From IMG/VR virus record IMGVR_UViG_3300045988_120991, positions 1 through 64,000 of that record: 64,000 nt of DNA. One strand, written 5' to 3'. Below the pieces are notes generated by a model. It was not told the DNA's origin. It searched no databases and saw only the letters and a program-made list of their open reading frames with translations. A program made the translations under genes and the position numbers. Every line of letters begins with the position of its first letter. Within the stretch, counting starts at the first letter, position 1. The DNA is from a virus. Of the stretch, positions 1 to 18,942 are shown piece by piece.

Positions 1-379
1 ATGCGGTGATGAGGTCTGCCTTGTTGGTTGCCCAGGTGTCGATAATTTTGTTGAGAGCTTCATCGGTGTACTGATAGTCATACTGGTCGAGCAGGAACTT
101 CATATTATCGAGTAGTATGTCCCTTTCTTCGTCAGTGATGATTTCCTTTACGAGTTCCATATTAATTTCCTCCTTTTTCTTTTCTGAAGCCGGTTCAACC
201 AGCTCAAAATAACAAGCTTCCACCATAAAGTTGTTGGATTCATCTACAAGATTAGTTCTCTGTTGAGATACCCAAATCGTATCACCATAGACTCTTGTCA
301 CATAGCCAGTCCATCCGTTGGTTGTAATAATATACGGAGTATGTCTAAGCGCTCTTACCTTATCTCCAACACGAAACAT
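1..379 (-). CDS. hypothetical protein (N-terminal ~126 aa; continues past left window edge)
   Basis: Hand translation of the - strand: ATG at 379 with GAGG 9 nt upstream (MFRVGDKVRALRH...). The frame stays open to position 1. An in-frame GGAGG+ATG at 160 could be an internal or alternative start. Confidence 0.55.
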   Translation of the reverse strand, partial: MFRVGDKVRALRHTPYIITTNGWTGYVTRVYGDTIWVSQQRTNLVDESNNFMVEACYFELVEPASEKKKEEINMELVKEIITDEERDILLDNMKFLLDQYDYQYTDEALNKIIDTWATNKADLITA

Positions 380-394
380 AATTATTTACCTCAT

Positions 395-781
395 TTAGTT
401 CATGTAGTCAGTGATGTCGGTTCCGTTGTAGGTGGTATACAGAACGTGGTCGGTGTTATTGTACGCCAGAACAACGATTGCATTTTCCACTTCGGCAGTC
501 TCATAAATGGTTTCGCTCAGGTCGCTGAATGCACTGTCAAAACCGTTTCTATTGAAGGTCGAGGTGGTGTTTACACCTTCGATTGATACGAACACATAAT
601 AGACACCATCGTCATATTCTGTGTGGAGAATCATGTCATCGAGGTCCTCACGTAGTTGTTTGTCGACATCCTGCCATGGTTCATTTCGCTTGATGTTGTT
701 GGCGACTTTCTTGTTGCTGCCACAGGCAGTCAGGGAGAAGACGGTCATAATGGCGAGGAGCATAGCAATAATCTTTTTCAT
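395..781 (-). CDS. predicted secreted lipoprotein (128 aa)
   Basis: Internal start of ORF 395..925. MKKIIAMLLAIMTVFSLTAC is a signal peptide plus an L-T-A-C lipobox. AAGGAA lies upstream. The upstream part of the long ORF looks non-genic. Confidence 0.7.
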   Translation of the reverse strand: MKKIIAMLLAIMTVFSLTACGSNKKVANNIKRNEPWQDVDKQLREDLDDMILHTEYDDGVYYVFVSIEGVNTTSTFNRNGFDSAFSDLSETIYETAEVENAIVVLAYNNTDHVLYTTYNGTDITDYMN

Positions 782-812
782 AGTAATTTCCTTTCTCAGT
801 AATTTTGTATTG

Positions 813-932
813 TCAGTTGTTTTCCGCTTCCGCAATTTCGTCAGCCGCTTCCTTGTGCGTATCACAAGAGCAATACACATCTCCGTTGTCATCGAGGACA
901 ACATAGTGTCCGTATCGGTGGTCAATCGTCAT
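813..932 (-). CDS. hypothetical small protein (39 aa)
   Basis: Hand-translated MTIDHRYGHYVVLDDNGDVYCSCDTHKEAADEIAEAENN. AAGGAG lies 7 nt upstream of the ATG at 932. Below the ORF-track size cutoff. Confidence 0.45.
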   Translation of the reverse strand: MTIDHRYGHYVVLDDNGDVYCSCDTHKEAADEIAEAENN

Positions 933-1089
933 GATTTTTCTCCTTGAGTAGTTCTCTTACATCATGGATGATTTCCACGATGTAATCCCCTTTTCGTATA
1001 TGTTGGCAATGGCCTTTTGCAATACAGTTGCCACATGCACCGCAATTAAGCATTGCCGAAAGGATGCTAAGTTTGTCGAGTACGTTCAT
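922..1089 (-). CDS. hypothetical Cys-rich small protein (55 aa)
   Basis: AAGGAGG upstream of the ATG at 1089 (MNVLDKLSILSAMLNCGACGNCIAKGHCQH...). The stop overlaps the next start. Confidence 0.5.
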   Translation of the reverse strand: MNVLDKLSILSAMLNCGACGNCIAKGHCQHIRKGDYIVEIIHDVRELLKEKNHDD

Positions 1090-1104
1090 TTGGTTTCTAC
1101 CTCC

Positions 1105-1284
1105 TTAAACCATCCTAATTACGACTTCTGTTGTGGAAGATGTTCCCGGCTCAATTAGATACGCAACATCTTCCACTTTATACAGTTTACCGTTTACCTT
1201 TACCTTTTCTCCTTGTCTTGGAAGATATTGCATCGTCCCATTGACAATGAGATCTTTGCCAACATAAAAATACACCCTAAACAT
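1105..1284 (-). CDS. hypothetical small protein (59 aa)
   Basis: ATG at 1284 with AAAGGAA upstream (MFRVYFYVGKDLIVNG...). The stop TAA abuts the next gene's GGAGG. Confidence 0.45.
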   Translation of the reverse strand: MFRVYFYVGKDLIVNGTMQYLPRQGEKVKVNGKLYKVEDVAYLIEPGTSSTTEVVIRMV

Positions 1285-1303
1285 TTGCTTTGTTCCTTTC
1301 CGT

Positions 1304-1441
1304 TTAGATTTTTACCAACGCTTCGATAAGCTGGTAAAAAATGCCTATAATTGTTAAAATAAGAACAATAATTCCGTCTTTCCTTTCGTCCTCTCCGAAT
1401 AAGAGGACGAAGGCATCAATGATAAGTAAAATGGCAATCAT
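1304..1441 (-). CDS. hypothetical small membrane protein (45 aa)
   Basis: AAGGAG 8 nt upstream of the ATG at 1441. MIAILLIIDAFVLLF...GIIVLILTIIGIFY has two hydrophobic stretches. Confidence 0.45.
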   Translation of the reverse strand: MIAILLIIDAFVLLFGEDERKDGIIVLILTIIGIFYQLIEALVKI

Positions 1442-1480
1442 TTGTTTTACTCCTTTGCCTTTTTAGAAATTCGATCAGAT

Positions 1481-1729
1481 TCATTTGTCTTGTTTCCCTT
1501 CAAGCAATTTCAATTTCGGATATTGCTTGTAAATATCATACATCTGCTCTCCCTTACCAAACTCATCGGCAAACTTCTCCATTGCATATTTCAAGCCTAC
1601 GGCGACAAACTTTATTTCTGGTTCAACTTCCGCTCTATCGAGAAGAATAGAAGCAGTTATTGCCAGTCCATCTAAGTAGAGAAACTCCTGATATTTCTTT
1701 TGAGCGAGTTTCTTTTTATGTCCGAACAT
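1481..1729 (-). CDS. hypothetical protein (82 aa)
   Basis: ORF track. TAAGGAGG lies directly upstream of the ATG. Confidence 0.7.
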   Translation of the reverse strand: MFGHKKKLAQKKYQEFLYLDGLAITASILLDRAEVEPEIKFVAVGLKYAMEKFADEFGKGEQMYDIYKQYPKLKLLEGKQDK

Positions 1730-1742
1730 TTTCCTTACCTCC

Positions 1743-2246
1743 TTAATAAATTTCCCTCAACTTTTCCATTTGCTCCTCCGTAAAGATACGGCGAAGCCCT
1801 GCATATTCCTCACCACAAGCAAGGAAAGTTTCCCTTACAGAGATACTGTCGGTACTGTAGCCGAACTCGGCACAGAAGTCACTGAAGCTGTCATAGCCGT
1901 ATTTCTCTACACAAGCAAGGATGTCATACTCGGTAGGGATTGCGTTTGCCTTGAGTTTTGCAAGTTCCTTTGTCCATTTGTTTCTCTCATAGAATGTCAT
2001 ATCCATCGGATTTCGCTTGTGGTATTTGCGACAATAGTCCATAAGGGACATATCAGAGATTTCCGTATTGTGCAGGCTGTCGTAGAACTTGCCGCTGTAT
2101 TTTCCTTTCGGAGTTGTGATGGTGAACCAGTAGCAGTTGTGCAGGTTGCTATCCCACCTTGGTGATGTCTTGCAGAGGAACTTAATTTCCACTGTGGCAT
2201 TGCAGTCAGCCAGAAACTGTTTCGCTTGAGCAACGTAGTCAGTCAT
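1743..2246 (-). CDS. hypothetical protein (167 aa)
   Basis: ORF track. TAATG overlap with the upstream gene indicates translational coupling. Confidence 0.8.
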   Translation of the reverse strand: MTDYVAQAKQFLADCNATVEIKFLCKTSPRWDSNLHNCYWFTITTPKGKYSGKFYDSLHNTEISDMSLMDYCRKYHKRNPMDMTFYERNKWTKELAKLKANAIPTEYDILACVEKYGYDSFSDFCAEFGYSTDSISVRETFLACGEEYAGLRRIFTEEQMEKLREIY

Positions 2247-2536
2247 TATAAAACCCCCATTTCTCTCAGTACGGTTTTTGCCGCAGTAGTGATGTGGTCA
2301 TCGTTGCAACTGTACTTGTCGTACCAGCCGCAAACAATTTCGCTTGGGATGGAACAGTGAATGCAGTCCCATGCAAGTCTTGTGCCGAAGTCCTTGTAGT
2401 TTCCGTTTGCCTTGAGTCTTTCAGCATACTCAGGCAAGTTAGTGATTTTGTTGAAGCTTTCCCTTATGAAGGGGATTTCGCTTTTAAGTTTCATTTCCAT
2501 TACTTCGCTTTCATACATTTGATTTCCGTTTGCCAT
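2246..2536 (-). CDS. hypothetical protein (96 aa)
   Basis: ORF track. Tightly packed in the leftward operon. Confidence 0.7.
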   Translation of the reverse strand: MANGNQMYESEVMEMKLKSEIPFIRESFNKITNLPEYAERLKANGNYKDFGTRLAWDCIHCSIPSEIVCGWYDKYSCNDDHITTAAKTVLREMGVL

Positions 2537-2542
2537 TGCCTT

Positions 2543-2851
2543 TTACATTTCGCTTAGGTCGTCCCAAATCCAAGAGTAAGCACCAATGGGATAAAGGTGT
2601 TTCCCTTGAATGTCCTCTCCCTTGAAGATAACGACTTCTTCTTCCATATATCCCTTGTAGGCAAAAGCATCGTTTGCCTTGTCGTAGCACATTGTGCAGT
2701 CGGGAGCATCGGCATTGACCTCCCTTGCAATCTGGTCGGCTACTTCCTTTGTGAAATACGGACAAGCCCATCCATTCCAGTGATTTCCTTTGGTGTAGCC
2801 CTCATAGATTGGGCCTTCTTCAATTTGAAATTTGCCTTTGAACATAAACAT
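2543..2851 (-). CDS. hypothetical protein (102 aa)
   Basis: ORF track. AAAGGAGAA upstream of the ATG. Confidence 0.75.
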   Translation of the reverse strand: MFMFKGKFQIEEGPIYEGYTKGNHWNGWACPYFTKEVADQIAREVNADAPDCTMCYDKANDAFAYKGYMEEEVVIFKGEDIQGKHLYPIGAYSWIWDDLSEM

Positions 2852-2926
2852 TTCTCCTTTCGCTTGATGGGATTGATTATTAAATTATCACCTCCTTTCG
2901 CTTTGAATTTGCTTTTGCCTTTTGCT

Positions 2927-3400
2927 TTACGCAAACATACCACTGTGGACTTTCTCCTTGTATGTCCACCCCATAGACTTGAGCAATTTGCTCATTTCTC
3001 CAGTAGACACACACTGGAACTCACCCTTGATGGGCAGAGGATTGATAGGACACTTGATGCGGCAGATACACTTGCCATCCTCATGACGGACGAGGAGAAT
3101 GAGCTGCACATCACGATCCTTGGAGTAACGCTCACGAATGAGTTGAGCCTGTTCAGCAATACCGTGAGTACCAAACTTGGGGTAGTTGCTCTGCAACCAC
3201 GGCATCAGATTGGTGTGCTTGGTGTAGATGATAGCCGTGTGGTAGGTGGGCTTGGTGTCGTTGGACTGGAGCAGAGCAATGGCATCGTGGGTCATCTGAA
3301 TGTAGCAATTATTCGTCCCAGCATAAGGACATTTAGCACATGCGTCACCACCATGGCTATTGCACAGAGCCAGAGCCTTCATCACATCATGCTTATTCAT
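2927..3400 (-). CDS. hypothetical protein (157 aa)
   Basis: ORF 2927..3412 trimmed to the ATG at 3400 (MNKHDVMK...), because GGAGG sits 5 nt upstream of that ATG. Confidence 0.75.
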   Translation of the reverse strand: MNKHDVMKALALCNSHGGDACAKCPYAGTNNCYIQMTHDAIALLQSNDTKPTYHTAIIYTKHTNLMPWLQSNYPKFGTHGIAEQAQLIRERYSKDRDVQLILLVRHEDGKCICRIKCPINPLPIKGEFQCVSTGEMSKLLKSMGWTYKEKVHSGMFA

Positions 3401-3624
3401 AGAGTCCTCCACGGTTAAGGTTCGTCAACCATAAAATGTTGGTCAACACATAAGCGCTAACCATTGGGATAGGACTTTTTGAGTGGAAGTCCTTCAGAAA
3501 CCACTCGGCACATCGTGTTGCAAGGTTAAAAAACATAAGCCAAATCAATGGACATTTATGCTCACGGCATTACACGACTGCACCAGATATTCAGTTGTAC
3601 TCGTCAGAACTCGTCCAACGGTTG

Positions 3625-3987
3625 TTAAACGGCGTAGAGCTTACGCCCATAGAGATAGCCACAAGCCTCGATGCACTTGTTCTTCCTCAAGGCTTCAAAG
3701 CCATCCTGACCGCAGATGTCAATGATAGCATCCTCATAGATGGCATCGGCACGAGGATAGTGCTTACGGAGAAGGTTGAGGTAGTAGCTCACAGGCTTGG
3801 CCTCAATCTTCTTCACAATGATGTCGTGGGTGAGAATATCGAGAATTACTTCGGGATTGGTGTTGGGACGCTTGGCACATTCCTGAATAAACTTGTTGGT
3901 GAGGCTGTGATCCCAAGGGATACAGTAGCCACGGAACACCTCTTTCTTAGCGTTGATAGCGTCTCTCTGAATCTTAGTCATCTTCAT
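3625..3987 (-). CDS. hypothetical protein (120 aa)
   Basis: ORF track. Abuts the upstream gene with a 1-nt gap. Confidence 0.75.
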   Translation of the reverse strand: MKMTKIQRDAINAKKEVFRGYCIPWDHSLTNKFIQECAKRPNTNPEVILDILTHDIIVKKIEAKPVSYYLNLLRKHYPRADAIYEDAIIDICGQDGFEALRKNKCIEACGYLYGRKLYAV

Positions 3988-3988
3988 G

Positions 3989-4180
3989 TTACTTGTCCTC
4001 CTTACTGTCGAAAATTGCTACGATCATAGCATGGGTACAGGCAATGGCACAGTGGTCACAGTCAATGTGCATCCCCTTGTTGCAGCAACAGTTGCAAGAA
4101 TGCTTGAAAGCCTTGATTGCCGCCTCTTTGGTCAGCGCATCATATTGATAGTTGATTCCTACCTGCTCGAACTTAGTCAT
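3989..4180 (-). CDS. hypothetical Cys/His-rich protein (63 aa)
   Basis: ORF track. GGAAGGAG upstream. Contains SCNCCCNKGMHIDCDHCAIACTH, a metal-binding-like cluster. Confidence 0.65.
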   Translation of the reverse strand: MTKFEQVGINYQYDALTKEAAIKAFKHSCNCCCNKGMHIDCDHCAIACTHAMIVAIFDSKEDK

Positions 4181-4289
4181 GATTTACTCCTTCCTATGGA
4201 CTTGGCCTTAACTCCCGCTAAGTGAGTGGCACAAACATAAGCCCATAATGATACCCTTGAGCCATACAACTCAAGGGCACGATACGGGT

Positions 4290-4508
4290 TTATAATTTTT
4301 TAAGTCGAGCATAAATGCCATCACGGTTAAGTGATTTGGTACTCAATGTGTAATGGACACCTTTTTTGAAGATGTCCCAACCACCACTTCGTGGTATGAC
4401 ACGAATGTGGTGGAACTTGGCAACGGTGCATAGGGATGAAAAAGAGTTGCTACCACATATGGCAACAACTCTGTGTGCATCTTTGCTAAATAGTTTGAGA
4501 AGATGCAT
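4290..4508 (-). CDS. hypothetical basic protein (72 aa)
   Basis: ORF track. AAGGAG 9 nt upstream. Starts 4 nt after the stop of 4512..4781. Confidence 0.5.
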   Translation of the reverse strand: MHLLKLFSKDAHRVVAICGSNSFSSLCTVAKFHHIRVIPRSGGWDIFKKGVHYTLSTKSLNRDGIYARLKKL

Positions 4509-4511
4509 AAG

Positions 4512-4781
4512 TCAAAACTCCTTGATGGTGCATCTACCATCGAGCCATTCCATCAGGTCAATTGTATGACGACCAAGCATACTTACATATGCCACATTCA
4601 ACTCGAACCACATAAAGTCGTCGTTGTCGCACACATTCTCGAACTGGGCAATGATATTGTGGTTGGTGTCAGCTACAAACAAAACGTCCGCATCTTTGAC
4701 TGTGGACATTGTACCTTCTGCCCAACCGATGATTTTGCAATCATGATAGAGACTATGCAAGTCTGTGAGTGTGAACTTCAT
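4512..4781 (-). CDS. hypothetical protein (89 aa)
   Basis: ORF track. TAGGAGGAA upstream of the ATG. Confidence 0.7.
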   Translation of the reverse strand: MKFTLTDLHSLYHDCKIIGWAEGTMSTVKDADVLFVADTNHNIIAQFENVCDNDDFMWFELNVAYVSMLGRHTIDLMEWLDGRCTIKEF

Positions 4782-4858
4782 AATGAGTTCCTCCTAAGAA
4801 ATATTCGTCCCTCGCTCAATCGATTGCTTGGGACTACGGTATCTATCGGTACAGATAA

Positions 4859-4886
4859 GGGTTAAGCACTCTATAATGCTTAACCC
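4859..4886. repeat. perfect 10-bp inverted repeat GGGTTAAGCA-N8-TGCTTAACCC
   Basis: Read directly. The loop is CTCTATAA. No U-run on either strand. It lies 78-105 nt upstream of the - strand gene starting at 4781. Confidence 0.6.
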
Positions 4887-4984
4887 ATACTCGTAGGTTT
4901 GTAGCAATTCGCATCTAATGCGTATATATAAACACAAGACAAACTGTGTTCATCCCGTGTGGATTTGTGCTCTCATAATTAGAC

Positions 4985-5018
4985 AAAAAATTGGGACGAC
5001 ACCCGAAGGCATCGTCCC
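4985..5018 (-). terminator. rho-independent terminator (UUCG tetraloop)
   Basis: - strand reads GGGACGATGCC-TTCG-GGTGTCGTCCC followed by AATTTTTT. It begins 7 nt after the stop of 5025..5231. Confidence 0.8.
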
Positions 5019-5024
5019 GTGTGA

Positions 5025-5231
5025 TTAGTCATCGAAGCTATAGCTATGTGCTTCACCGTCGAAGCTGATGATGTAGCCATCGTCGGTGAACTCAACAAAC
5101 TCAGCCGACTGAATTGTCTCCTTACGAACGACTTTGTCCACATACTTGCCATAGGCAACGAACATAAGCCCTACGGCTACGAAGATAATCATACGGATGA
5201 TGAATTTGTACTCGCTATTGATTTTTTTCAT
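5025..5231 (-). CDS. hypothetical membrane-anchored protein (68 aa)
   Basis: ORF 5025..5249 trimmed to the ATG at 5231 (AAAGGAG 9 nt upstream). Contains the TM segment FIIRMIIFVAVGLMFVAYG. Confidence 0.65.
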   Translation of the reverse strand: MKKINSEYKFIIRMIIFVAVGLMFVAYGKYVDKVVRKETIQSAEFVEFTDDGYIISFDGEAHSYSFDD

Positions 5232-5346
5232 GATACATACTCCTTTCATACTCGGGGAATTTTTAGTGAGCCAATCTAATGCGTGTGTGTGGTCACATAG
5301 GAGAGAGTGTTCTCAACCTATGCAAAATTACACACTCACAATAGAA

Positions 5347-5380
5347 CAAAAAAAATGGGGGACACCCGAAGGTGTCCCCC
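5347..5380 (-). terminator. rho-independent terminator (UUCG tetraloop)
   Basis: - strand reads GGGGGACACC-TTCG-GGTGTCCCCC followed by ATTTTTTTT, 16 nt after the stop of 5396..5815. Confidence 0.85.
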
Positions 5381-5395
5381 GTGCTGGGAGAGTGC

Positions 5396-5815
5396 TTACT
5401 TGCAGATGCTGTCCTTGAGTGCCTGAAGGTCCTTCTTCGTACCTACGAAGCCGTACTCGTCCTTGGCAACCTTACGAGAGATGCTCGCACGGTCACGCTT
5501 GATAGCCTCGATGAGCTTCTTGGAAGGCTTATAGCCTTCACGCTTGGACTCGAAGTCGGCAAGGGCTTTTTCACGCTTCGCCTTCCAAGCCGCCTTTTCC
5601 TCGTCGGTGTGCCTACGGGACGTGTAGTTCTCCGCCTGCTTGCGGGTGATGAGCTTGGTTTCGCCCTTGGCGTTGGTATACTTGACCATTTCAGCCTCCG
5701 GCTGAACATTGCCAGTGGATTTCTTCACGGGCTTCTGCTCCGCGAGGGCTTTAGCGACCGCCTTAGCAACGATTTCTTCTACCTGCTCCTGAGTAAACAT
5801 AACCTTCTTAGCCAT
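5396..5815 (-). CDS. hypothetical Lys/Glu-rich protein (139 aa), first gene of the leftward arm
   Basis: ORF 5396..5992 trimmed to the ATG at 5815 (MAKKVMFTQEQ...), which has AGGAAGGAGAA upstream. Flanked by its own terminator. Confidence 0.7.
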   Translation of the reverse strand: MAKKVMFTQEQVEEIVAKAVAKALAEQKPVKKSTGNVQPEAEMVKYTNAKGETKLITRKQAENYTSRRHTDEEKAAWKAKREKALADFESKREGYKPSKKLIEAIKRDRASISRKVAKDEYGFVGTKKDLQALKDSICK

Positions 5816-5931: not shown

Positions 5932-5955
5932 TTCTCAAAATATCAATTTTGAGAA
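5932..5955. promoter_or_regulatory. perfect palindrome TTCTCAAAA-N6-TTTTGAGAA (candidate operator)
   Basis: Read directly. It sits just upstream of the candidate leftward -35. A third half-site TTCTCAAAA is at 6057-6065. Confidence 0.4.
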
Positions 5956-6056
5956 AATTGAACCTGGGGGTACATAAAACTGGCAAAAGCATTGAAAATA
6001 AACAATTTTGTAAGATGAGGTTATTTTGTATACTGACTTGAAAAATAAGAAAAATT

Positions 6057-6552
6057 TTCTCAAAACAAAAAATCGCAACAAATACCCAAAATCACCCCAT
6101 CCAAAGCAACAAATCTAAACCTATATCTCCACAAACCAAACTCTCAAACCATCCATATTTTCACCCTATAATATACCCATCAATTCCCAATTCCCAAATA
6201 TAAAAGCATCCCACTTCCACATCTCCAAATCCACCATCCAACAAATTTCTCTCGTATCGTACAAGCATTCTACTTTTAAGCAACACAAAACAAATCACCA
6301 AATTCCTCATCATATTGTACTAATACATTAATACAAAATCTAAAATCATAAGTGATCCACTATCGTCCTTCCCATCATCAAAACAGACCACTCAAAAATT
6401 CACCTTCTCACACTCCTATAAACACCTCTCCACATACTTTTAAAACAATCCTCTGCAAAAACTCCACCCTACCGGGGTACTTTCAACTATCCCTATACTA
6501 CTTTTTGCACAAGCCTACCTACAAAATAAAACATAACCCATAAAAAATAAAA
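6057..6552 (+). other. ~495-nt G-depleted (C/A-rich) non-coding tract
   Basis: Hand count: about 19 G in 6061-6540 (480 nt). No credible ORF or RBS. Confidence 0.85.
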
Positions 6553-6610
6553 AGTCCCATCCATAGGACTCTCAACATAAAAATAGTCCCATTTTTAGGA
6601 CACATAACAA

Positions 6611-6702
6611 TATATATTATAATAATATATATAAATATAATAATATATAGATATAAATATATAATAATATATAATATAATAATAAATATATATAATAATA
6701 TA
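6611..6702. repeat. near-pure A/T low-complexity tract
   Basis: About 92 nt of (TATA/AATA)n with a single G, read directly. Confidence 0.9.
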
Positions 6703-6766
6703 TAAGTACAAACACTATTGTCCAATCCTATTTGCCAATCATTTTTTTCTTAAATATAATGTTAAA

Positions 6767-6792
6767 TATTATATTGTTATATTATATTGTTA
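6767..6792 (+). repeat. tandem direct 13-mer TATTATATTGTTA x2
   Basis: Exact copies at 6767-6779 and 6780-6792. Confidence 0.85.
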
Positions 6793-6795
6793 AGC

Positions 6796-6955
6796 GTCCT
6801 AATTTTGGGACTTTTTTAGTCCCGCCGGTGGGACTTTTTTCATATAGGTAGTCCCAATTTTGGGACTTTTTAAAAAGTGTACTAATTTTGGGACTATTTT
6901 CGTGAAAAAGTCCCGCCAATGGGACTATTTTAAAAAAGTGTCATAATTTTGGGAC
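6796..6955. repeat. array of six GTCCY-N-GGGACT(W)TTTT hairpin/iteron units
   Basis: GGGAC starts at 6807, 6830, 6862, 6890, 6921 and 6951 (spacing 23-32 bp). Most have an upstream GTCCC/GTCCT arm and a T-tract. Two degenerate copies are at 6553-6570 and 6585-6602. Confidence 0.8.
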
Positions 6956-6963
6956 TTTTCCCC

Positions 6964-6992
6964 TTGACAAATGAAAAATTCTGTGTTATCAT
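6964..6992 (+). promoter_or_regulatory. sigma-A-type early promoter P1
   Basis: TTGACA (6964-6969), exactly 17 nt, then TATCAT (6987-6992). The 15-mer motif starts 2 nt downstream. Confidence 0.6.
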
Positions 6993-7020: not shown

Positions 7021-7320
7021 ATGGAAGTAACAGTCAACAAAACAGAGTCCGACCAAAATAACCCCTATTGCATTGTGAACATTGCCGCCAACCGGGGGGC
7101 ACTTGAAACTTTGACAAAATCAGCCTACTGTCTATATATGTACTTTATGCAGAATCAGGATGGCTTTACATTGAAGTTACGTCGTAACCATGCAATGAGC
7201 GTTACCAATCTGTCTAAATCTTCATACCATAGAGCAATGGCTGAACTCATAGAAAAAGGATACATTATAGATTGCGGCGACGGCTATGAATTTTATGAAG
7301 AACCAGAGGAAGAATTATAA
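7021..7320 (+). CDS. winged-helix DNA-binding protein (99 aa), possible initiator/regulator
   Basis: ORF 6949..7320 trimmed to the ATG at 7021 (AGGAGG upstream). LSKSSYHRAMAELIEKGYI is a wHTH-like recognition region. Confidence 0.6.
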   Translation: MEVTVNKTESDQNNPYCIVNIAANRGALETLTKSAYCLYMYFMQNQDGFTLKLRRNHAMSVTNLSKSSYHRAMAELIEKGYIIDCGDGYEFYEEPEEEL

Positions 7321-7402: not shown

Positions 7403-8215
7403 ATGACAAACGACATCAAGGTATTTGACAACGAGGAATTTGGTAAAGTAAGAACAACTATGATTAATGGAGAACCTTGGTTTGTAGCGTCTGATATATG
7501 TGACGCATTGGACATTACTAATAGCAGAGATGCTATTAATCGTTTGGATGATGATGAAAAGGGAGTAGTTTTAACCGACACCCTTGGAGGAGTTCAAAAC
7601 TTAAATACAGTTAATGAGGCAGGTCTTTATACTTTGGTTCTTGGATCTCGTAAACCTGTAGCTAAGAAATTTAAGAGGTGGATTACACACGAAGTTATCC
7701 CATCTATCCGTAAAACTGGTGGTTATGTTGCCAATGATGAACTATTTATTTCAACCTATTTACCAACAGCGGATGAGGCAACAAAGTTAATGTTCCGTAC
7801 CACCTTAGCAACTGTGCGCCAACTAAATGAAGATAATAATAAATTGCTACAAACCGTCTCCGTCCAGAATCAGCAAATTGCAGAGATGGAGCCTAAAGTA
7901 ACTTATTATGATATTGTCCTGCAATGTAAGGATGTTATCACCATTACCACTATTGCAAAAGATTATGGAAAGTCTGCTAAATGGATGAATCAATATCTGC
8001 ACGACAAGGGCGTTCAATATCGTCGGGGAGATATTTGGCTTTTGTATCAAAAGTATGCTTCTAAAGGATATACTCATACAAAAACTTATGCGACAGATAC
8101 TTCTGCTTTTGCCAAAGTTCACACATATTGGACTCAGAAAGGCAGATTGTTTATTTATGATTTACTAAAGAGTGATGGTATTTTGCCACTAATTGAACAG
8201 GAGGAACAAAAATGA
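7403..8215 (+). CDS. Bro-N / KilAC (ANT) family antirepressor-like protein
   Basis: The N-terminus FGKVRTTMINGEPWFVASDICDALDI is Bro-N-like. The C-terminus TYYDIVLQCKDVITITTIAKDYGKSAKWMNQYL is KilAC/ANT-like. Confidence 0.7.
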   Translation: MTNDIKVFDNEEFGKVRTTMINGEPWFVASDICDALDITNSRDAINRLDDDEKGVVLTDTLGGVQNLNTVNEAGLYTLVLGSRKPVAKKFKRWITHEVIPSIRKTGGYVANDELFISTYLPTADEATKLMFRTTLATVRQLNEDNNKLLQTVSVQNQQIAEMEPKVTYYDIVLQCKDVITITTIAKDYGKSAKWMNQYLHDKGVQYRRGDIWLLYQKYASKGYTHTKTYATDTSAFAKVHTYWTQKGRLFIYDLLKSDGILPLIEQEEQK

Positions 8216-9048: not shown

Positions 9049-9294
9049 ATGAGTGAATTAAAACAATGCCCGTTCTGCGGAGGAGATGCAGAAAAAAGAT
9101 ACATTAAGAGAAAGAAGTTATTTGCCTCCATGCGTTTTCCTTATAACACCCACTATGTCTATATTCAATGCCAACTCTGTGGGGCTACGAGTAGAGTTTG
9201 TGTTACCGTCGAAAATGCAATAGAAGCGTGGAACAGCAGAGTTAGTAATTATGCTAATCTTTTTGATAAAAGACAAAAAATTGATATTACATAA
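9049..9294 (+). CDS. Lar-family (restriction alleviation-like) zinc-ribbon protein
   Basis: LKQCPFCGG...CQLCG...AIEAWNSR matches my memory of the Lar-family pattern. Not verified by search. Confidence 0.6.
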   Translation: MSELKQCPFCGGDAEKRYIKRKKLFASMRFPYNTHYVYIQCQLCGATSRVCVTVENAIEAWNSRVSNYANLFDKRQKIDIT

Positions 9295-13509: not shown

Positions 13510-16341
13510 TTGGCAAAAGCACAAAAAACACAACAGTTTATATATAAAATAAATTCAAGTTTACTCAGACAAAATAATTGGGACTTAAAATTACCATTAT
13601 CGGATGCAAGAAAAATACCAGGGGTCGTTGTTTCTTTGGCTGATTCACAAATTTTAACATGGATTAACGAATTAAATGGTACTGAAAATTATGATAATGA
13701 CGCAAAAAAGATAAAAGATGAAATAAAAAATATAAAGAAACAGCCAAATAGCGCAGAAAATAAGACGAAAATCTCGGAAAAGTATTCAAAATTATATGAT
13801 TTGCAGTTTAAAAAGGACTACTTATGCCTGATTATAGATAAAAAGTCCGATTATGATAGAGCAAATGAAGGCTTTAAGGTTAATGGAATAGCGTATAAAA
13901 GACTTATATGTACTACAAATGGCGTCAAAACATCTAGTGTTGTATATGCCGCAGATAGAATTGTTGAATACAAAGGACAAAAGATAAATATTCATGATGA
14001 ATTGAAAAGACGCATAGAAAATGGCAGAAACACGAGTATAAAGCTCTCCCCTGCTAAATATGGGGCTTATGAATCACTTGCAGCAAGTGCTTCTATCCCA
14101 GTTAGTTGGCCAAGATCTAAAGAGAATAAAATTCCAGGTGGAATAATTGTCGTAAAAGACTGTATTGTTCATTTTAAGGCCAATTTTATTGAAATAGACG
14201 ATAGTGATCCAACATCAGAACCGAAAGTTACTGAGAAGCACGATGCTGATTTTGAAAATAATATGTCGGATGGATGTTCTATGATGCTCCCCCATTTGTC
14301 TAAAAGATGGAATGGGGAGTTGAATGGAGATTCAGAGCATACTATGAGTGGGTGTAATATGCGTTGTGCTTTCACAAAGGGTATGGCACTTACTTTTGAT
14401 TTCATAAGATTTGCAGAAGAAGTCGTTGGTGCCTCCGAAGAAAATCCTGAAAAATATTTAATTGAGGATTATTGGGGGCAAGAAAGAGATGTTCGTGATG
14501 CTGATTTAATTTTAACTGAAAGTCAACTTAAATTATGTGGTAGTTATAGTTCTTGGGAAGATTATTATACGAAATGCATTGAAAATCATTATACTTTAAG
14601 GGTTACGAAGACCTCAGAAGAAGAAAATGATGATATAAGACAGTTGAATTATCAGTTTATTCAGTCTTTAGACCTCACAAATGAAGATATAGATGAGCTT
14701 GTTGCTCCTACGGTCAATGAAATCAAGGATATTATGGAACTAGATCCAAGAAAAAGTGTTGCATATTTATGTGGAAAAGGTCTGAATGAAAAGAATGTAT
14801 TATTTGCCGATAATGTTGCAAAGGCACTTATGATTGATGAGACAGCCATAAATGATCCTTATATTCGTTCAAAAATTAAAAAAATGATAAATAGACGCAT
14901 AAAAGATGCCAAAATTGGTGTTTTAGATTTACATGGGAACTTTCAAATCCTTTCTGGTGATTTATATGCCCTTTGTGAGAGTATGTTTGGTTTAAATCCA
15001 CATGGAATCTTAAAGGCGGGTGAAATTTATAGCAAGTATTGGTATGATGAGGGTGTAGATAGGGTTCTTTGTTTTAGAGCACCAATGAGCAATGCTCATT
15101 CTATAGTTGCTCAAAACATTTGTACAAACGAAAAGGCTCTTGACTGGTTTCAATATATCAATACTTGCATAGTTGTGAATGGATGGGACACTATGCCTGC
15201 TGCTTTGAATGGCTTTGATTTTGATGGAGACTTGTTGTTTACAACGAATAATGCGCCGTTAATGAGAAGACAGACTAACCTCCCCGCTTTAAACTGTATA
15301 CAAACCAAAGCTCCTAAGAAGGTCGTTACAGATGAAGATGTCATTGCCTCTAATAAAGCGGGATTTGGCAGTAAGATTGGGTCCATAACAAATAAAATTA
15401 CTGCAATGACCAGTTTGATGGCCAACTATGATAAAGACAGCGAGGAATATGAAGTTTTAAGATATAGAACACAGTGTGGTCAAGCATTGCAGCAACGTGA
15501 AATAGATAAAGCCAAAGGTATTTTACCGATTCCAATGCCAAAAGAATGGTATCAATATGGAGCAAATGTTATAAAACCAGAAGATTTCGATGAAATTCAA
15601 GTGAAAAAACAGTTCAATCAGGCCATTTGTGCAAACAAAAAGCCATATTTCTTTATGTATAACTACGATGCAGAAAGAATCAATTATCAGAAATTTATCG
15701 AAGAAGCCAACTCAAAATCAATTGGTTTATATGGATATTCGTTTGAAGATATGCTAAAAATGGATGATTTGAGTGAAGATGCAGATAAATTTGTTAAATA
15801 TTGCACAATAAAGTGCCCGATTGACATGTCCCCTTCTACTATGAACCGTATTTGTTGGAAAATAGAAAGTGAATTTAGTGGAAACTTTCTTTGTGATGAT
15901 GTTGATTTTGATTACAGGATTTATAAGTCAGGAAATGAAGTTAAAAGAACTTCTTATTTTGAAATTAAATCTTTGTGTGAACACTACTTAATGGATTTAA
16001 AGAATTTAAATAGCAGAAAAATTAACAATGAAGAAGAGCGAAAGATACTTTTAGTAGATAAAGATAGATTGCTTGAAGTTCTTATAGAGGATATAACTTC
16101 TATTTGCCCAAATCAAGAGACTCTTTGTGATATTCTTTTAGATATTTGTTATACTGGAAAAATGAGTAAAAGTGTTGTTTGGGATGTTTGTGGTAATCAA
16201 ATTATTGAGAATATGTTAAAAAAGCACGACAATGTACTTACTTATCCAGAAAAGTGTTTAGAAGCAGAGTTTTCTTGTTGTGGGACAAAATTCTTTAGTA
16301 AAACCATTAAAGTTGGAGGTGAAAAAGCCGATGAGGTTTAA
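13510..16341 (+). CDS. putative single-subunit two-barrel RNA polymerase (YonO / RdRP-like), 943 aa
   Basis: NGFDFDGDLLF (GAT TTT GAT GGA GAC at 15217-15231) fits the DbDGD catalytic loop. The upstream VLCFRAPMSNAHS and LSGDLYAL segments resemble RdRP/YonO first-barrel motifs. TTG start. Confidence 0.6.
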   Translation: MAKAQKTQQFIYKINSSLLRQNNWDLKLPLSDARKIPGVVVSLADSQILTWINELNGTENYDNDAKKIKDEIKNIKKQPNSAENKTKISEKYSKLYDLQFKKDYLCLIIDKKSDYDRANEGFKVNGIAYKRLICTTNGVKTSSVVYAADRIVEYKGQKINIHDELKRRIENGRNTSIKLSPAKYGAYESLAASASIPVSWPRSKENKIPGGIIVVKDCIVHFKANFIEIDDSDPTSEPKVTEKHDADFENNMSDGCSMMLPHLSKRWNGELNGDSEHTMSGCNMRCAFTKGMALTFDFIRFAEEVVGASEENPEKYLIEDYWGQERDVRDADLILTESQLKLCGSYSSWEDYYTKCIENHYTLRVTKTSEEENDDIRQLNYQFIQSLDLTNEDIDELVAPTVNEIKDIMELDPRKSVAYLCGKGLNEKNVLFADNVAKALMIDETAINDPYIRSKIKKMINRRIKDAKIGVLDLHGNFQILSGDLYALCESMFGLNPHGILKAGEIYSKYWYDEGVDRVLCFRAPMSNAHSIVAQNICTNEKALDWFQYINTCIVVNGWDTMPAALNGFDFDGDLLFTTNNAPLMRRQTNLPALNCIQTKAPKKVVTDEDVIASNKAGFGSKIGSITNKITAMTSLMANYDKDSEEYEVLRYRTQCGQALQQREIDKAKGILPIPMPKEWYQYGANVIKPEDFDEIQVKKQFNQAICANKKPYFFMYNYDAERINYQKFIEEANSKSIGLYGYSFEDMLKMDDLSEDADKFVKYCTIKCPIDMSPSTMNRICWKIESEFSGNFLCDDVDFDYRIYKSGNEVKRTSYFEIKSLCEHYLMDLKNLNSRKINNEEERKILLVDKDRLLEVLIEDITSICPNQETLCDILLDICYTGKMSKSVVWDVCGNQIIENMLKKHDNVLTYPEKCLEAEFSCCGTKFFSKTIKVGGEKADEV

Positions 16342-17218
16342 TTTCAATGAAAAAAGTAAAATTTATAGTATCGTAGAAGATGGAGACATAAATGGTTTGA
16401 CTGTAAATAAAGCCATTTGGAATGCCGCAATTTATTATACTCAACTAAATCCAGTTGATAAAAATTATGTTTTTTGGAAAATTGTTGAGTTTATGAATAA
16501 ATATTATAATGACTTTATGTATCAAGGTTATGTTTCTACTATAAATAGAGATATAAATAAGGCTTATAAATATAAAATCAAGGATGTAAGTTCTATCAAT
16601 ATAACAAAGAAAGAAATGGACAAGATTATATCTTTGAATGATATAAGAAAAGAAAAGATTGCGTTTGTTATTTTGGCCTTGGCAAAATATCAAAATGCTG
16701 AAAGTCAAAGAGATAACGATACATTTTATGCAAAAACTTCCGAGATATTTAAATTTGCAAGGGTTGTTATCCCAGCAAAAGAAAGAGATTTGTATTTTGG
16801 GTTTGCATATAGAGAAGGATTGCTTAAGCAGAATTTTAGTATAGGATATAATGCCCTGACTGCTGCTTTTGTAAATCATGATGAAGATGAGGTCGTTCTA
16901 ACACTTGACGAGTGTGATTATTTGGAACTTGCATATTCGTATTTAAATTATAAGAATGGCGGATATAAGAGATGCGAGGCTTGTGGAAGGTGGTTTAAGT
17001 CTAAATCTAACGCGGCAAAATATTGTAGTATTCATCGTCCGGATTATGAGTTATCTAGTGACGTTGAAATTGAATGCATTGAATGTGGAAAAAGATTTTT
17101 AGTAAACCCTCTTGCTACGGAAACTTGCAGATGTGAACAATGTAATTCTGTATATCAAAAGAAAAGAAATGCAATTAAAAATAAAGTGTATAGGGATAGA
17201 ATGAGAAATAAATCGTGA
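16331..17218 (+). CDS. Zn-ribbon protein translationally coupled to the RNAP gene (295 aa)
   Basis: ATG at 16331 overlaps the RNAP 3' end by 11 nt, with GGAGG upstream. The C-terminus has CEACGRWF..CSIH and CIECGKRF..CRCEQCN. Confidence 0.7.
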   Translation: MRFNFNEKSKIYSIVEDGDINGLTVNKAIWNAAIYYTQLNPVDKNYVFWKIVEFMNKYYNDFMYQGYVSTINRDINKAYKYKIKDVSSINITKKEMDKIISLNDIRKEKIAFVILALAKYQNAESQRDNDTFYAKTSEIFKFARVVIPAKERDLYFGFAYREGLLKQNFSIGYNALTAAFVNHDEDEVVLTLDECDYLELAYSYLNYKNGGYKRCEACGRWFKSKSNAAKYCSIHRPDYELSSDVEIECIECGKRFLVNPLATETCRCEQCNSVYQKKRNAIKNKVYRDRMRNKS

Positions 17219-17235
17219 CCGTCGCCTCAAAATAG

Positions 17236-17250
17236 ACAATACAAAATTAA
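17236..17250 (+). promoter_or_regulatory. conserved 15-mer copy 6
   Basis: Exact match. This copy alone is followed by a terminator hairpin rather than an SD. Confidence 0.7.
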
Positions 17251-17254
17251 TGCT

Positions 17255-17285
17255 AAAAACACAAGGAATTTCCTTGTGTTTTTTA
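17255..17285 (+). terminator. rho-independent terminator
   Basis: CACAAGGA-ATT-TCCTTGTG with A/T extension and a TTTTTT tail. Confidence 0.8.
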
Positions 17286-17383
17286 CTCTTTAGTAAGATA
17301 AAGTGGAACAAAATAGTAATGATATAAGAATATTGCTTATATTTTTATATAAATAAATTACAAACAAATGGAGGTACAAAAAT

Positions 17384-17998
17384 ATGGAAAATCTAGCCGT
17401 TGTAATTCCTAACAATGCAGCAAATCTACAACTCCCAGACCCAGTGCTTCGTGATTATTATAGAGACGAAGAGCAAAGAATCTATTGGGTAGATGGTGAA
17501 ATTGATTCTTCCCTACTCGACTTAGTGAAGATGATTATGCATTGTAATAAAGAGGATAAAGACAAGCCAGTTGAAGAAAGAATGCCAATCAAGGTGTTTA
17601 TTGATTCTCCTGGTGGTGATGTGCAGGCTCTGTATACAACAATTAAGGCAATTGAGATTAGTAAAACACCAGTTTATACAATTAATTATTGTGGTGCTTA
17701 TAGTGCTGCCGCAATTCTATTGACTGCTGGGCATAAGCGTTTTGCTCTTCCTGGTACAAGCGCAATGTTCCATCGTGGTTCTTGTTACTATGGTGGAGAG
17801 CAAAGTGTTGTTGAATCTATGAAGAAGTATTTTGATGCGCTAGATAAGAAAGTTGACGAGTTTTTATTTTCTCACACAAGTATTGATCAGAAGGTCTATA
17901 AGAGAAAGGCTTCTTCCGACCTATATATGGATGAGAATGAGTGTTTAAAGAATAATGTTATTGATAGTGTTATATCTGACTTTGAAGAGATTATGTAA
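17384..17998 (+). CDS. ClpP-family serine protease-like protein
   Basis: IDSPGGDV...CGAYSAAAILL...MFHRGS...SSDLYMD parallels the ClpP Ser-His-Asp context. Confidence 0.7.
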   Translation: MENLAVVIPNNAANLQLPDPVLRDYYRDEEQRIYWVDGEIDSSLLDLVKMIMHCNKEDKDKPVEERMPIKVFIDSPGGDVQALYTTIKAIEISKTPVYTINYCGAYSAAAILLTAGHKRFALPGTSAMFHRGSCYYGGEQSVVESMKKYFDALDKKVDEFLFSHTSIDQKVYKRKASSDLYMDENECLKNNVIDSVISDFEEIM

Positions 17999-18011
17999 CT
18001 AGGAGGATCAT

Positions 18012-18722: not shown

Positions 18723-18737
18723 TAGGAGGAACAAATT

Positions 18738-18929: not shown

Positions 18930-18942
18930 GGAGTTGGTGACA

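What the first reader, a model, noticed from the sequence alone, without database searches (positions are those of the whole stretch)
6057..6552. About 495-nt almost G-free (C/A-rich) non-coding strand
By hand count there are about 19 G in 480 nt (6061-6540), while C is abundant, so GC skew is extreme. There is no ORF or RBS. Short C/A words recur, such as CAATTCCCAATTCCCAAAT and CCACTTCCACATCTCCAAATCCACCATCCAAC. Possible roles:
- A giant rut-like Rho loading zone, since C-rich, G-poor RNA is the hallmark of rut sites. It would insulate the two arms against rightward read-through.
- Leftward transcription would give a G-rich RNA on a C-rich template, which favours R-loops and could prime replication.
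- An unstructured CA-rich ncRNA or protein sponge.
- The physical genome terminus or packaging region, if the contig is circularly permuted.
I know of no described phage element of this kind.
Basis: partly seen in the sequence, partly recalled or inferred. Interest (0 to 1): 0.65.

Follow-up and report, generated by a model that had tools for sequence, protein, structure and literature searches.

The report
G-free tract beside phage genome end
The almost guanine-free 500-base stretch is real, and it is a conserved feature of SPbeta-like phages that sits directly beside the short repeat where the virus DNA is cut and packaged, so it marks the genome end rather than a gene or a known RNA.

Summary
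Window 6057-6552 has 19 G in 496 nt, the lowest G count of any 480-nt window in the 64 kb.

The window is a roughly 166-kb human-gut phage with a YonO-type RNA polymerase and a late region in the same gene order as SPbeta. Every relative examined keeps a 270-560-nt G-poor tract at this spot, although there are at least 11 sequence types that barely align.

All of them share the same frame: the motif TGGGGGTA, then 30-85 nt, then the tract. In four characterised relatives the motif lies at the inner edge of the mapped terminal block:
- SPbeta/BUCT082/BUCT083: a 252-bp block starting at the genome "opening point".
- Perkons: a 264-bp terminal repeat.
- c-st: a 404-bp terminal repeat.
- PMBT24: the PhageTerm pac site.

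The tract starts exactly at that block's boundary. In SPbeta-like phages, PMBT24, c-st and, weakly, Perkons, a mirror-image C-poor tract flanks the other side.

So this is a sub-terminal spacer. The strand ending 3' at the nearby genome end is kept free of C. T7 has a weaker analogue just after its left repeat.

No support was found for rut, R-loop or sponge-RNA roles. The function remains inferred: most likely it is tied to the single-stranded 3'-tail stage of end processing.

The parts
5934..5955 (.). Perfect A/T-rich palindrome TCTCAAAAT-ATCA-ATTTTGAGA. It lies 10 nt left of the conserved motif and looks like an operator.
   Evidence: It is invariant in types A and B. Other types carry a different A/T-rich palindrome at the same place: ACAAATA-GT-TATTTGT in L023/L026 and CAAAATG-CA-CATTTTG in L022.
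5965..5980 (+). Motif 1, TGGGGGTACATAAAAC, the conserved marker of the terminal block.
   Evidence: It is invariant in all 20 true family loci. The core TGGGGGTA sits 30-53 nt before the mapped inner boundary of the terminal repeat or block in SPbeta, BUCT082, Perkons and c-st, and about 60 nt before the tract in PMBT24. The 14-nt motif occurs once in the window.
6029..6038 (+). TATACTGACT. It lies exactly 51 nt after motif 1 in every family member. It is the predicted position of the terminase cut, that is, the inner boundary of the terminal repeat (predicted range 6019-6040).
   Evidence: The fixed 51-nt spacing and the conserved ACTRACT are shown. The word aligns with the boundary words CATAGC| (SPbeta), CTAAGC| (Perkons), TATAGC (PMBT24) and CTAGTA| (c-st). 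The boundary in this phage is an inference; no reads were available.
6039..6552 (+). The G-depleted, C/A-rich sub-terminal tract, which is the finding itself.
   Evidence: Searches give the composition. Searches show that the composition is conserved in all relatives. Searches show that the sequence is not conserved.
6315..6336 (.). Conserved central hairpin TTGTACTAAT-AC-ATTAATACAA. It is one of the few G-containing islands in the tract.
   Evidence: The word TGTACTA is shared by 5 of the 11 tract types, about 25-fold over expectation. It is aligned and is the only stable stem in the DNA fold.
6467..6487 (+). Motif 2, CCCTACCGGGGTACTTTCAAC, a second and looser copy of the GGGGTAC motif at the far end of the tract. 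It is followed by TATACTAC at 6494-6501.
   Evidence: It is present in most types (GGTACNTTCAAC core). It resembles the single motif of PMBT24, GGGGGGTACTTTCAGAC.
6553..6601 (.). Two GTCC(C/T)A-N4-T(G/A)GGAC palindromes. These are adjacent and probably a separate operator/origin module.
   Evidence: On the minus strand each is followed by a T run, so they look like terminators for leftward transcription.
6609..6708 (.). A stretch of 100 nt made only of A and T, adjacent to the tract. It looks like an unwinding element or promoter region.
   Evidence: (C-free run 6609-6708). Four independent assemblies break inside it.
6795..6960 (.). Six more GTCCCA-N4-TGGGAC palindromes, followed by a strong promoter (TTGACA-17-TATCAT, 6964-6992) and the first plus-strand gene (7021-7320).
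   Evidence: The repeat sequence changes together with the downstream small gene in relatives.

Best explanation
The tract is a sub-terminal spacer of the phage chromosome: the non-coding DNA that starts at the inner boundary of a short exact terminal repeat, which is also the packaging start.

Shown:
- The element is conserved in composition, frame and position across a wide clade of phages with a YonO-type RNA polymerase.
- In every relative whose ends have been mapped, the tract begins at the mapped boundary.
- The depleted base is always G on the strand read 5'->3' away from the terminal block. Where the other side of the block is non-coding, it carries the mirror image.

Inferred for this phage: terminase cuts near TATAC/TGACT (about 6019-6040), guided by TGGGGGTA at 5965-5972. 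The terminal repeat would then lie to the left and the tract would be the first unique DNA.

Inferred mechanism: the complementary strand is C-free and G/T/A-rich, and it is the strand that ends 3' at the nearby genome end. That strand is left single-stranded when ends are resected, or left unreplicated, so that the terminal repeats can anneal into circles or concatemers. Excluding C from that strand (and G from its partner) gives single strands with almost no secondary structure and nothing to deaminate to uracil. The gap can then be filled without breaks. Because these bases are exposed, the zone is kept free of genes.

An alternative the data do not exclude is that the 508 bp between motif 1 and motif 2 is itself the terminal repeat.
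For: Composition is conserved while sequence is not. There are 11 tract types in 20+ loci, all with 1-8 G per 100 nt. The flanks are about 90% identical while the tract does not align by blastn. Residual homology shows up only in a purine/pyrimidine alphabet (z = 6.3).

The frame is invariant: GGGTACATAAAAC, then 51 nt, then ACTRACT.

Ends mapped in relatives:
- SPbeta: the 250-bp pac fragment of Kohm et al. (bioRxiv 10.1101/2021.11.22.469490, supplement item 11) ends exactly where the SPbeta G-poor tract starts.
- BUCT082 and BUCT083: the BUCT082 record starts at one boundary of that block and the BUCT083 record at the other.
- Perkons: an annotated 264-bp terminal repeat with GGGGGTA 53 nt from its edge. 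It is followed by 500 nt with G/C per 100 nt of 20-30/2-6 in record orientation.
- c-st: a 404-bp terminal repeat ending GGGGGTAAAG...TAGTA|, then a low-G stretch.
- PMBT24: the PhageTerm pac site is record base 1 (PMC11035940). The motif is at 253, then 0-7 G per 100 nt to the right. The last 360 nt of the record have 0-7 C per 100 nt.

Both strands fold almost not at all as single-stranded DNA: 0 to -6.8 kcal/mol per 150 nt, against -6.2 to -11 for controls.

The same polarity, in weaker form, follows the T7 left terminal repeat (G 11% over 240 nt).

The window shares gene order with the SPbeta late region: RNA polymerase, HU-like protein, metallophosphoesterase, terminase, portal.
Against: - No reads exist for this phage, so its ends are not mapped. 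The assignment rests on homology of a short motif and of the architecture.
- In the gut clade there is no mirror tract within 13 kb to the left. The neighbouring minus-strand gene shows no skew at third codon positions.
- The terminal block itself is not skewed, although it would be the most exposed DNA.
- PMBT24 and SPbeta-like phages were called pac/headful phages by their authors, not exact-repeat phages.
- The single-strand rationale is an inference. Nothing here shows that the tract is ever single-stranded.
- Pooled over 14 tracts, C positions show an approximately 10.75-bp periodicity (z = 7.4). This points as much to protein wrapping of duplex DNA as to a single-strand role.
- The second motif at 6474 leaves open that the tract is the repeat itself.
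Confidence: 0.5

Rival explanations
1. The tract is a neutral mutational footprint with no function. Non-coding DNA next to the ends sits single-stranded on the 3'-ended strand in every cycle. C->U and A->hypoxanthine deamination on that strand then drive the partner strand towards A+C, as in vertebrate mitochondrial DNA and in the leading/lagging skew of bacteria.
For: The polarity is right at both ends in SPbeta-like phages, PMBT24, Perkons and c-st. In the window tract G and T fall while A and C rise, which is the deamination signature. Only about 7-fold (G->A) and 2.4-fold (T->C) rate shifts are needed to reach the observed ratios (my arithmetic). Differences between close relatives are mostly C<->T (74 of 106 variable sites). 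G survives mainly in conserved islands.
Against: In PMBT24 and SPbeta the missing G is replaced by C, not A: A falls from 35 to 27.5% and from 33 to 29.5%. This needs transversions. G+C is kept at or above the genome mean. The edges are sharp and there is no gradient in the window. The adjacent coding sequence shows no skew at third positions. The transition/transversion ratio in the tract (9.4) is not clearly above that of well-aligned flanks (3.8-8.3).
Confidence: 0.2
2. The tract is a packaging-protein landing arm. It would be duplex DNA wrapped by small terminase or the phage HU-like protein between two GGGGTAC sites, like pacL/pacR around pacC in SPP1, and it would position the cut.
For: It adjoins the cut boundary. 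Motif 1 and motif 2 bracket it, 508 bp apart. The words CCAAATC/AAATCCAC recur in 9 of the 11 types. C positions have an approximately 10.75-bp periodicity pooled over 14 tracts (z = 7.4), with z of at least 3.8 in 7 of 16 distinct tracts, against a control maximum of 4.4. An HU-like gene is conserved in the clade.
Against: Wrapping does not require excluding one base from one strand. The window's own tract shows only weak periodicity (z = 2.0). The sequence turns over quickly while the terminase and RNA polymerase stay 85-100% identical. No small terminase gene was identified.
Confidence: 0.15
3. The tract is a rut-like zone. A rightward transcript would be C-rich, G-less, untranslatable and unstructured, so Rho would load on it and terminate. 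This would insulate the terminal block or the origin-like region.
For: The RNA would have no AUG, GUG or UUG and no Shine-Dalgarno sequence. Predicted folding is almost nil: 0 and -13.7 kcal/mol per 240 nt, against -52 +/- 9 for controls. The mirror tract would give the same kind of RNA for leftward transcripts leaving the block.
Against: No promoter reads into the tract. The -10-like TAYACT has no consistent -35 element and aligns with the cut boundary of relatives. The locus is already a divergence point, so no transcription needs to be stopped. The tract edges coincide with DNA ends, which an RNA model does not predict.
Confidence: 0.08
4. The tract is an R-loop primer zone for the neighbouring origin-like region. 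Leftward transcription would give G-rich RNA on a C-rich template, as in ColE1 RNA II, T4 oriF or the mitochondrial conserved sequence blocks.
For: The tract lies next to an A/T-only stretch flanked by eight palindromes and promoter-like sites. The cumulative GC skew has its minimum at about 6600-6900.
Against: Two terminator-like hairpins (6601->6586 and 6573->6550) stand between the A/T region and the tract. G runs on the complementary strand are not enriched (z from -1.8 to 2.9), and G4 motifs are rare. SPbeta and L022 have the tract without iterons or an A/T tract.
Confidence: 0.05

Closest known systems
Short-repeat region just inside the left terminal repeat of phage T7 (about bases 161-400)
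   Same: It is non-coding DNA that starts at the inner edge of a short exact terminal repeat. It is G-poor and A/C-rich on the strand read away from the end (A89 C67 G26 T58). Early promoters follow a few hundred bases further in. T3, SP6 and phiKMV show faint versions.
   Different: T7 is far less extreme (11% G against 4%) and is built of a repeated heptamer (period 13, z = 11.8). It has no mirror at the right end. The T7 tract is at the end that enters the cell first (established knowledge). In SPbeta the tract is at the end reported to be packaged first.
SPbeta 'pac-site fragment' / genome opening point between yonR and yonP (Fink and Zahler 1982; Kohm et al., bioRxiv 10.1101/2021.11.22.469490)
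   Same: The motif (GGGGGTAT...), the position upstream of the polymerase arm, and a G-poor tract starting at the block edge are all shared.
   Different: The authors describe the 250-bp block, not the skewed flanks. The SPbeta tract is shorter (about 270 nt) and milder (7.7% G). SPbeta has a mirror tract on the other side; the window phage does not.
Short direct terminal repeats of Psychrobacillus phage Perkons (264 bp) and Clostridium phage c-st (404 bp)
   Same: Both are phages with a YonO-type polymerase. GGGGGTA lies 30-53 nt from the repeat's inner edge, and a skewed tract begins at that edge.
   Different: Their ends were determined experimentally; the window's were not. The c-st skew is weak in a genome with 26% G+C.
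Rho utilisation (rut) sites
   Same: The sequence would give C-rich, G-poor, unstructured and untranslated RNA.
   Different: No promoter or transcript is evident. It is 5-6 times longer than typical rut sites. The edges coincide with DNA ends and there is a mirror copy.
Replication-linked strand asymmetry (bacterial leading/lagging skew; vertebrate mitochondrial heavy/light strands)
   Same: The strand expected to spend time single-stranded is the one poor in C. In the window tract the partner strand is A+C-rich.
   Different: The effect is confined to a few hundred bases with sharp edges. In several lineages G is replaced by C rather than A.
Eukaryotic telomeric/sub-telomeric repeats
   Same: The strand running 5'->3' towards the chromosome end is the G-rich, C-poor one.
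   Different: There is no tandem unit, no enrichment of G runs and no telomerase. The tract lies inside a terminal repeat rather than at the very tip.

Membership tests
Sub-terminal flank of a short exact terminal repeat / pac block in SPbeta-like (YonO-polymerase) phages | The phage belongs to the clade: YonO-type RNA polymerase and SPbeta-like late gene order. | tested here: met
   Pfam PF05183 matches the 943-aa protein. tblastn gives 37% identity to c-st, 34% to Enterocloster phages and 25-29% to SPbeta-like phages. The HU-like protein, metallophosphoesterase, terminase and portal follow in the same order as SPbeta yonN, yonJ, yonF and yonE.
Sub-terminal flank of a short exact terminal repeat / pac block in SPbeta-like (YonO-polymerase) phages | The TGGGGGTA motif lies 30-85 nt before the start of the tract. 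| tested here: met
   Window 5965-5972, with the tract starting at about 6041-6050. The same arrangement is seen in SPbeta, BUCT082, Perkons, c-st and PMBT24.
Sub-terminal flank of a short exact terminal repeat / pac block in SPbeta-like (YonO-polymerase) phages | The tract starts at a physical end or repeat boundary of the virion DNA. | not testable with these tools
   This is met in four characterised relatives. No sequencing reads or virion DNA of the window phage are available.
Sub-terminal flank of a short exact terminal repeat / pac block in SPbeta-like (YonO-polymerase) phages | A mirror-image C-poor tract lies on the other side of the block. | tested here: not met
   It is absent within 6 kb in the window and within 13 kb in gut relatives. 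It is present in SPbeta-like phages and PMBT24, and weakly in Perkons and c-st. It is absent at the T7 right end, so it is not universal.
Rho utilisation (rut) site | A C>G, unstructured RNA segment of at least about 80 nt. | tested here: met
   C155 against G19. RNA minimum free energy is 0 and -13.7 kcal/mol per 240 nt, against -52 +/- 9 for controls.
Rho utilisation (rut) site | The segment lies in a transcribed, untranslated region downstream of a promoter. | tested here: inconclusive
   The scan found no plus-strand sigma-70-type promoter upstream. Promoters for the phage polymerase are unknown (PMC5467207). No expression data are available.
Rho utilisation (rut) site | Termination depends on Rho. 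| not testable with these tools
   This needs an experiment.
Iteron/A-T-rich replication origin | Repeated initiator sites next to an unwinding element. | tested here: not met
   The tract itself has no such repeats. The repeats lie at 6553-6960 and are a separate neighbour. SPbeta and L022 keep the tract without them. DnaA-box-like words have at least 2-3 mismatches.
R-loop-primed origin (ColE1 RNA II, T4 oriF, mitochondrial conserved sequence blocks) | A promoter that yields G-rich RNA with G clusters across the zone. | tested here: not met
   Terminator-like hairpins precede the tract for leftward transcription. G runs are not enriched.
T7-type repeat array inside the terminal repeat | An array of a short repeated unit. 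| tested here: not met
   Only 2.4 copies of CAATTCC are found. Position and G-poverty are shared with T7.
Known non-coding RNA families (Rfam 15) | A covariance-model match. | tested here: not met
   There are no hits at gathering threshold in the window or in five relatives. Only chance-level hits appear at E of 1 or below.

The most novel reading that the evidence does not exclude
SPbeta-like phages, and in weaker form T7-like phages, carry functional 'sub-telomeres'. These would be zones of a few hundred bases next to the terminal repeat in which one base is excluded from one strand, so that the 3'-ended strand can exist safely as an unstructured, cytosine-free single strand. That strand would be needed while the terminal repeat is annealed or regenerated. 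The zones would be required for end joining or packaging, and they would allow genome ends to be read from sequence alone in uncultured phages.
Probability: 0.25. Interest if true: 0.8.

Novelty: new variant of a known kind. Interest (0 to 1): 0.62.

Why it matters
The physical ends of phage genomes are usually invisible in metagenome assemblies. Here a sequence signature predicts them: TGGGGGTA followed by a zone from which one base is excluded, mirrored on the other side in several lineages. It coincides to the base with ends mapped independently in SPbeta-like phages, Perkons and c-st, and with the PhageTerm pac site in PMBT24.

It suggests that the '250-bp block' of SPbeta is a short exact terminal repeat, as in Perkons and c-st. 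It also suggests that the DNA next to such repeats is under an unusual strand-specific constraint that has not, as far as I could find, been described.

SPbeta is genetically tractable, so the function can be tested directly.

Tried and rejected
1. A hypermutated (G->A) relic of a GC-rich gene. The composition fits for the window, but relatives replace G by C.
2. A DnaA-box cluster. AAATCCAC-type words have at least 2-3 mismatches to TTATCCACA and no array structure.
3. A structured RNA in the conserved left block. RNAalifold gives only -1.8 and -3.1 kcal/mol with no convincing covariation.
4. Rfam families. None match.
5. G-quadruplex or telomere-like G clusters on the complementary strand. 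They are not enriched.
6. The two PMBT24 flanks as an inverted repeat. They are not (z = 1.6).
7. Contig ends as termini. Four assemblies break in the A/T-only stretch, but at different bases (6649-6788). These are assembly breaks, not ends. Locus lengths from pattern scans cannot be read as contig ends.
8. A second motif about 55 nt before the other repeat boundary. A weak candidate exists in SPbeta (GGGTTATATAT), but there is none in Perkons or BUCT082.
9. A tract-specific mutation spectrum. The C<->T excess is explained by composition plus a general transition bias.
10. blastn of the locus or of 20 kb against the isolate phage collection found no match.
11. The literature searches for this feature found nothing relevant.
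12. The second TGGGGGTA at 12860 lies in coding DNA and is at chance level.

Full report
**1. The observation**

Window 6057-6552 has base counts A200 C155 T122 G19. No other 480-nt window in the 64 kb has so few G: the minimum is 19 at 6050, against a mean of 102 and sd of 14. G-free runs reach 99 nt. GC skew reaches -0.81. The quoted C/A words are there, but the only real tandem repeat is 2.4 copies of CAATTCC. The few mechanical ORFs lie in sequence that barely aligns between relatives, and a strand without G can carry neither a usual start codon nor a Shine-Dalgarno sequence.

**2. The setting**

The window is a tailed phage. It carries:
- an anti-repressor (7403-8215);
- a Lar-like protein (9049-9294);
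- a 943-aa YonO/RdRP-type single-chain RNA polymerase (13510-16341, Pfam PF05183);
- ClpP-like, PhoH-like and HU-like proteins and a metallophosphoesterase (17384-20444);
- terminase (21897-23999) and portal (24012-25556).

This is the gene order of the SPbeta yonO-yonE region.

The tract lies in a 1.2-kb gap between a leftward arm (first gene 5396-5815, minus strand) and the long rightward arm (first gene 7021-7320). To its right are eight GTCCCA-N4-TGGGAC palindromes around a 100-nt stretch of pure A/T, followed by a strong promoter.

**3. Close relatives keep the composition, not the sequence**

The neighbouring small protein, the polymerase and a DNA pattern retrieved more than 30 loci. 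Twenty-five came from human-gut metagenome and GTDB genome scans (5 of those were chance hits). The rest came from IMG/VR, which does not state its sample sources. Contigs are mostly 146-175 kb. One contig with the window's own left gene is 166,050 nt.

Every true relative with enough flank has a G-poor tract of 320-510 nt at the same place. There are at least 11 sequence types.

Types A (window) and B have flanks about 90% identical and tracts of 486 and 487 nt, yet blastn does not align the tracts. A global alignment shows residual homology that is clearest in a purine/pyrimidine alphabet (z = 6.3). It is absent in the amino/keto and strong/weak alphabets.

A few islands are conserved: a central hairpin (6315-6336), CCAAATC/AAATCCAC words, and a distal GGGGTACTTTCAAC (6474-6487).

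The left frame is invariant. It consists of an A/T palindrome, then TGGGGGTACATAAAAC, then exactly 51 nt, then ACTRACT, then the tract.

C richness varies from 18 to 45%. What is conserved is the avoidance of G.

**4. The link to genome ends**

tblastn with the polymerase finds isolated phages: c-st, the Enterocloster phages, Perkons and the SPbeta group. All carry the same architecture.

- SPbeta. Between yonR and yonP lies ATGGGGGTATATTTACATC. Fifty-three nt after its first G begins a 270-nt tract with 7.7% G. Restriction mapping (Fink and Zahler 1982) and read mapping placed the SPbeta-like 'genome opening point' here. It is followed by a precise block of raised coverage about 250 bp long (Kohm et al., bioRxiv 10.1101/2021.11.22.469490). 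The sequence printed in their supplement ends exactly at the first base of the tract.
- BUCT082 and BUCT083. The BUCT082 record starts at the opening point. The BUCT083 record starts at the other boundary of the block.
- Perkons. It has an annotated 264-bp direct terminal repeat with GGGGGTA 53 nt from its edge. In record orientation the 500 nt next to it have G/C per 100 nt of 23/6, 27/6, 26/6, 30/6 and 20/2.
- c-st. It has a 404-bp terminal repeat ending GGGGGTAAAG...CCTAGTA|, then a low-G stretch.
- PMBT24. The PhageTerm pac site was made base 1 of the record (PMC11035940). The motif is at 253, and then 500 nt have 0-7 G per 100 nt. The last 360 nt of the record, just left of the pac site, have 0-7 C and 41-47 G per 100 nt.

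SPbeta-like phages, c-st and, weakly, Perkons also show the mirror tract on the other side of the block.

The rule is: terminal block, then a zone in which the strand read 5'->3' away from the block lacks G. My inference is that the SPbeta block is a short exact terminal repeat, as in Perkons and c-st. By homology, the window phage's inner repeat boundary would lie at about 6019-6040, near the conserved TATAC/TGACT.

**5. Properties that bear on function**

- No Rfam family matches.
- No sigma-70-type promoter reads into the tract from the left. Two terminator-like hairpins guard it from the right.
- As RNA, the plus strand is essentially unfolded. As single-stranded DNA, both strands are nearly structure-free apart from the conserved islands.
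- G runs on the complementary strand are not enriched.
- Pooled over 14 tracts, C positions show a periodicity of about 10.75 bp (z = 7.4). Seven of 16 distinct tracts reach z of at least 3.8, against a control maximum of 4.4. The window's own tract reaches only z = 2.0.

**6. Mechanism**

The common factor across lineages is polarity relative to the nearest end, not the order of packaging or transcription. The C-free strand is the one that ends 3' at that end. This is the strand exposed when 5' ends are resected, or when the last lagging-strand stretch is left unreplicated. In the classical model for T7-type genomes, that is how terminal repeats anneal into concatemers (established knowledge).

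A pure mutational reading, by deamination of exposed C and A, fits the window (A and C up, G and T down). It needs only modest rate shifts. In PMBT24 and SPbeta, however, G is replaced by C while A falls, G+C is maintained, and the edges are sharp. I therefore favour selection for excluding C from the exposed strand: no uracil, no stable hairpins and a gene-free buffer. Mutation bias probably contributes, and protein wrapping may also play a part. These steps are inferences.

T7 shows the same polarity in the 240 nt after its left repeat (G 11%), with no mirror at the right end. T3, SP6 and phiKMV show faint versions and N4 shows none.

**7. Limits**

The ends of this phage are not mapped. The gut clade lacks the mirror tract. 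The authors of the PMBT24 and SPbeta studies interpret their data as pac/headful packaging. The second motif at 6474 leaves open that the 508 bp between the two motifs is itself the repeat.

**8. Novelty**

I found no description of these skewed flanks in the searchable literature. The closest described object is the repeat region just inside the T7 terminal repeat. I rate this a new and extreme variant of a known kind of region, the terminal-repeat or pac flank. It has practical value for predicting termini and can be tested directly in SPbeta.

Noticed in passing
window 6553-6601 and 6795-6960, around 6609-6708: Eight GTCCCA-N4-TGGGAC palindromes, most with flanking A or T runs, surround 100 nt of pure A/T. 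Relatives carry different repeats (TCATTTTGAGAC in L023/L026; GTGTCCTA..TTCCGAAAA in L020; GTCCA-N6-TGGAC in L006-8) together with a diverged first gene (homologue of 7021-7320). This looks like a co-evolving operator or origin module.
   Followed up: partly
L023 2080-2200; L020 5150-5270; L026 3230-3340; L024 and L046 types: In several relatives the tract is interrupted by an element of about 120-150 nt with normal G content. L023 has a TTGACA-17-TATATT promoter just upstream of the element, and the L020, L023 and L026 copies share a GTCCCA..TGGGAC hairpin with a T run. This is a candidate small RNA with no Rfam match.
   Followed up: partly
window 1-5815: The leftward arm has 41-55% G+C against about 35% for the rest. 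It consists of small minus-strand ORFs with no Pfam hits. The gene 5396-5815 has only two distant partial matches in IMG/VR (59% identity over 34 residues). Its exact protein lies on 5 contigs of the gene-position index. Homology to relatives starts abruptly at 5921, which marks a mosaic breakpoint at the edge of the conserved block.
   Followed up: partly
window 6649-6788 equivalents (L001, L003, L005, L065): Four independent assemblies end inside the A/T-only stretch, each at a different base. This is probably coverage or complexity drop-out rather than true ends.
   Followed up: partly
L028 158-888 and L060 362-1697 (PMBT24 record): The deposited annotation places many 30-68-aa 'hypothetical proteins' inside the G-free and C-free tracts. 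These calls are probably spurious.
   Followed up: no
window 5922-5869 (minus strand): A promoter-like site (TTCAGA-17-TATAAT) is followed at once by a GC hairpin and a T run (5885-5869), before the RBS of the gene that starts at 5815. This could be an attenuator in the leader of the leftward arm.
   Followed up: no
window 13510-20444: The YonO-type polymerase is followed by ClpP-like, PhoH-like and HU-like proteins and a metallophosphoesterase. The HU-like protein and metallophosphoesterase next to the polymerase recur in SPbeta, BUCT082 and TR-TP1. An HU-like gene also lies near the polymerase in c-st and PMBT24.
   Followed up: partly
window 39977-46927: A single 2316-aa ORF lies in the structural region. 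It may be a tape-measure or tail-fibre-like protein. It was not analysed.
   Followed up: no
L059 (USJD01000001.1) and L057/L058: A 147-kb contig of this phage family is deposited as a bin labelled 'uncultured Prevotella sp.'. Given the Firmicute-type relatives, it is probably a mis-binned phage genome. L057 and L058 were chance pattern hits without the tract.
   Followed up: no
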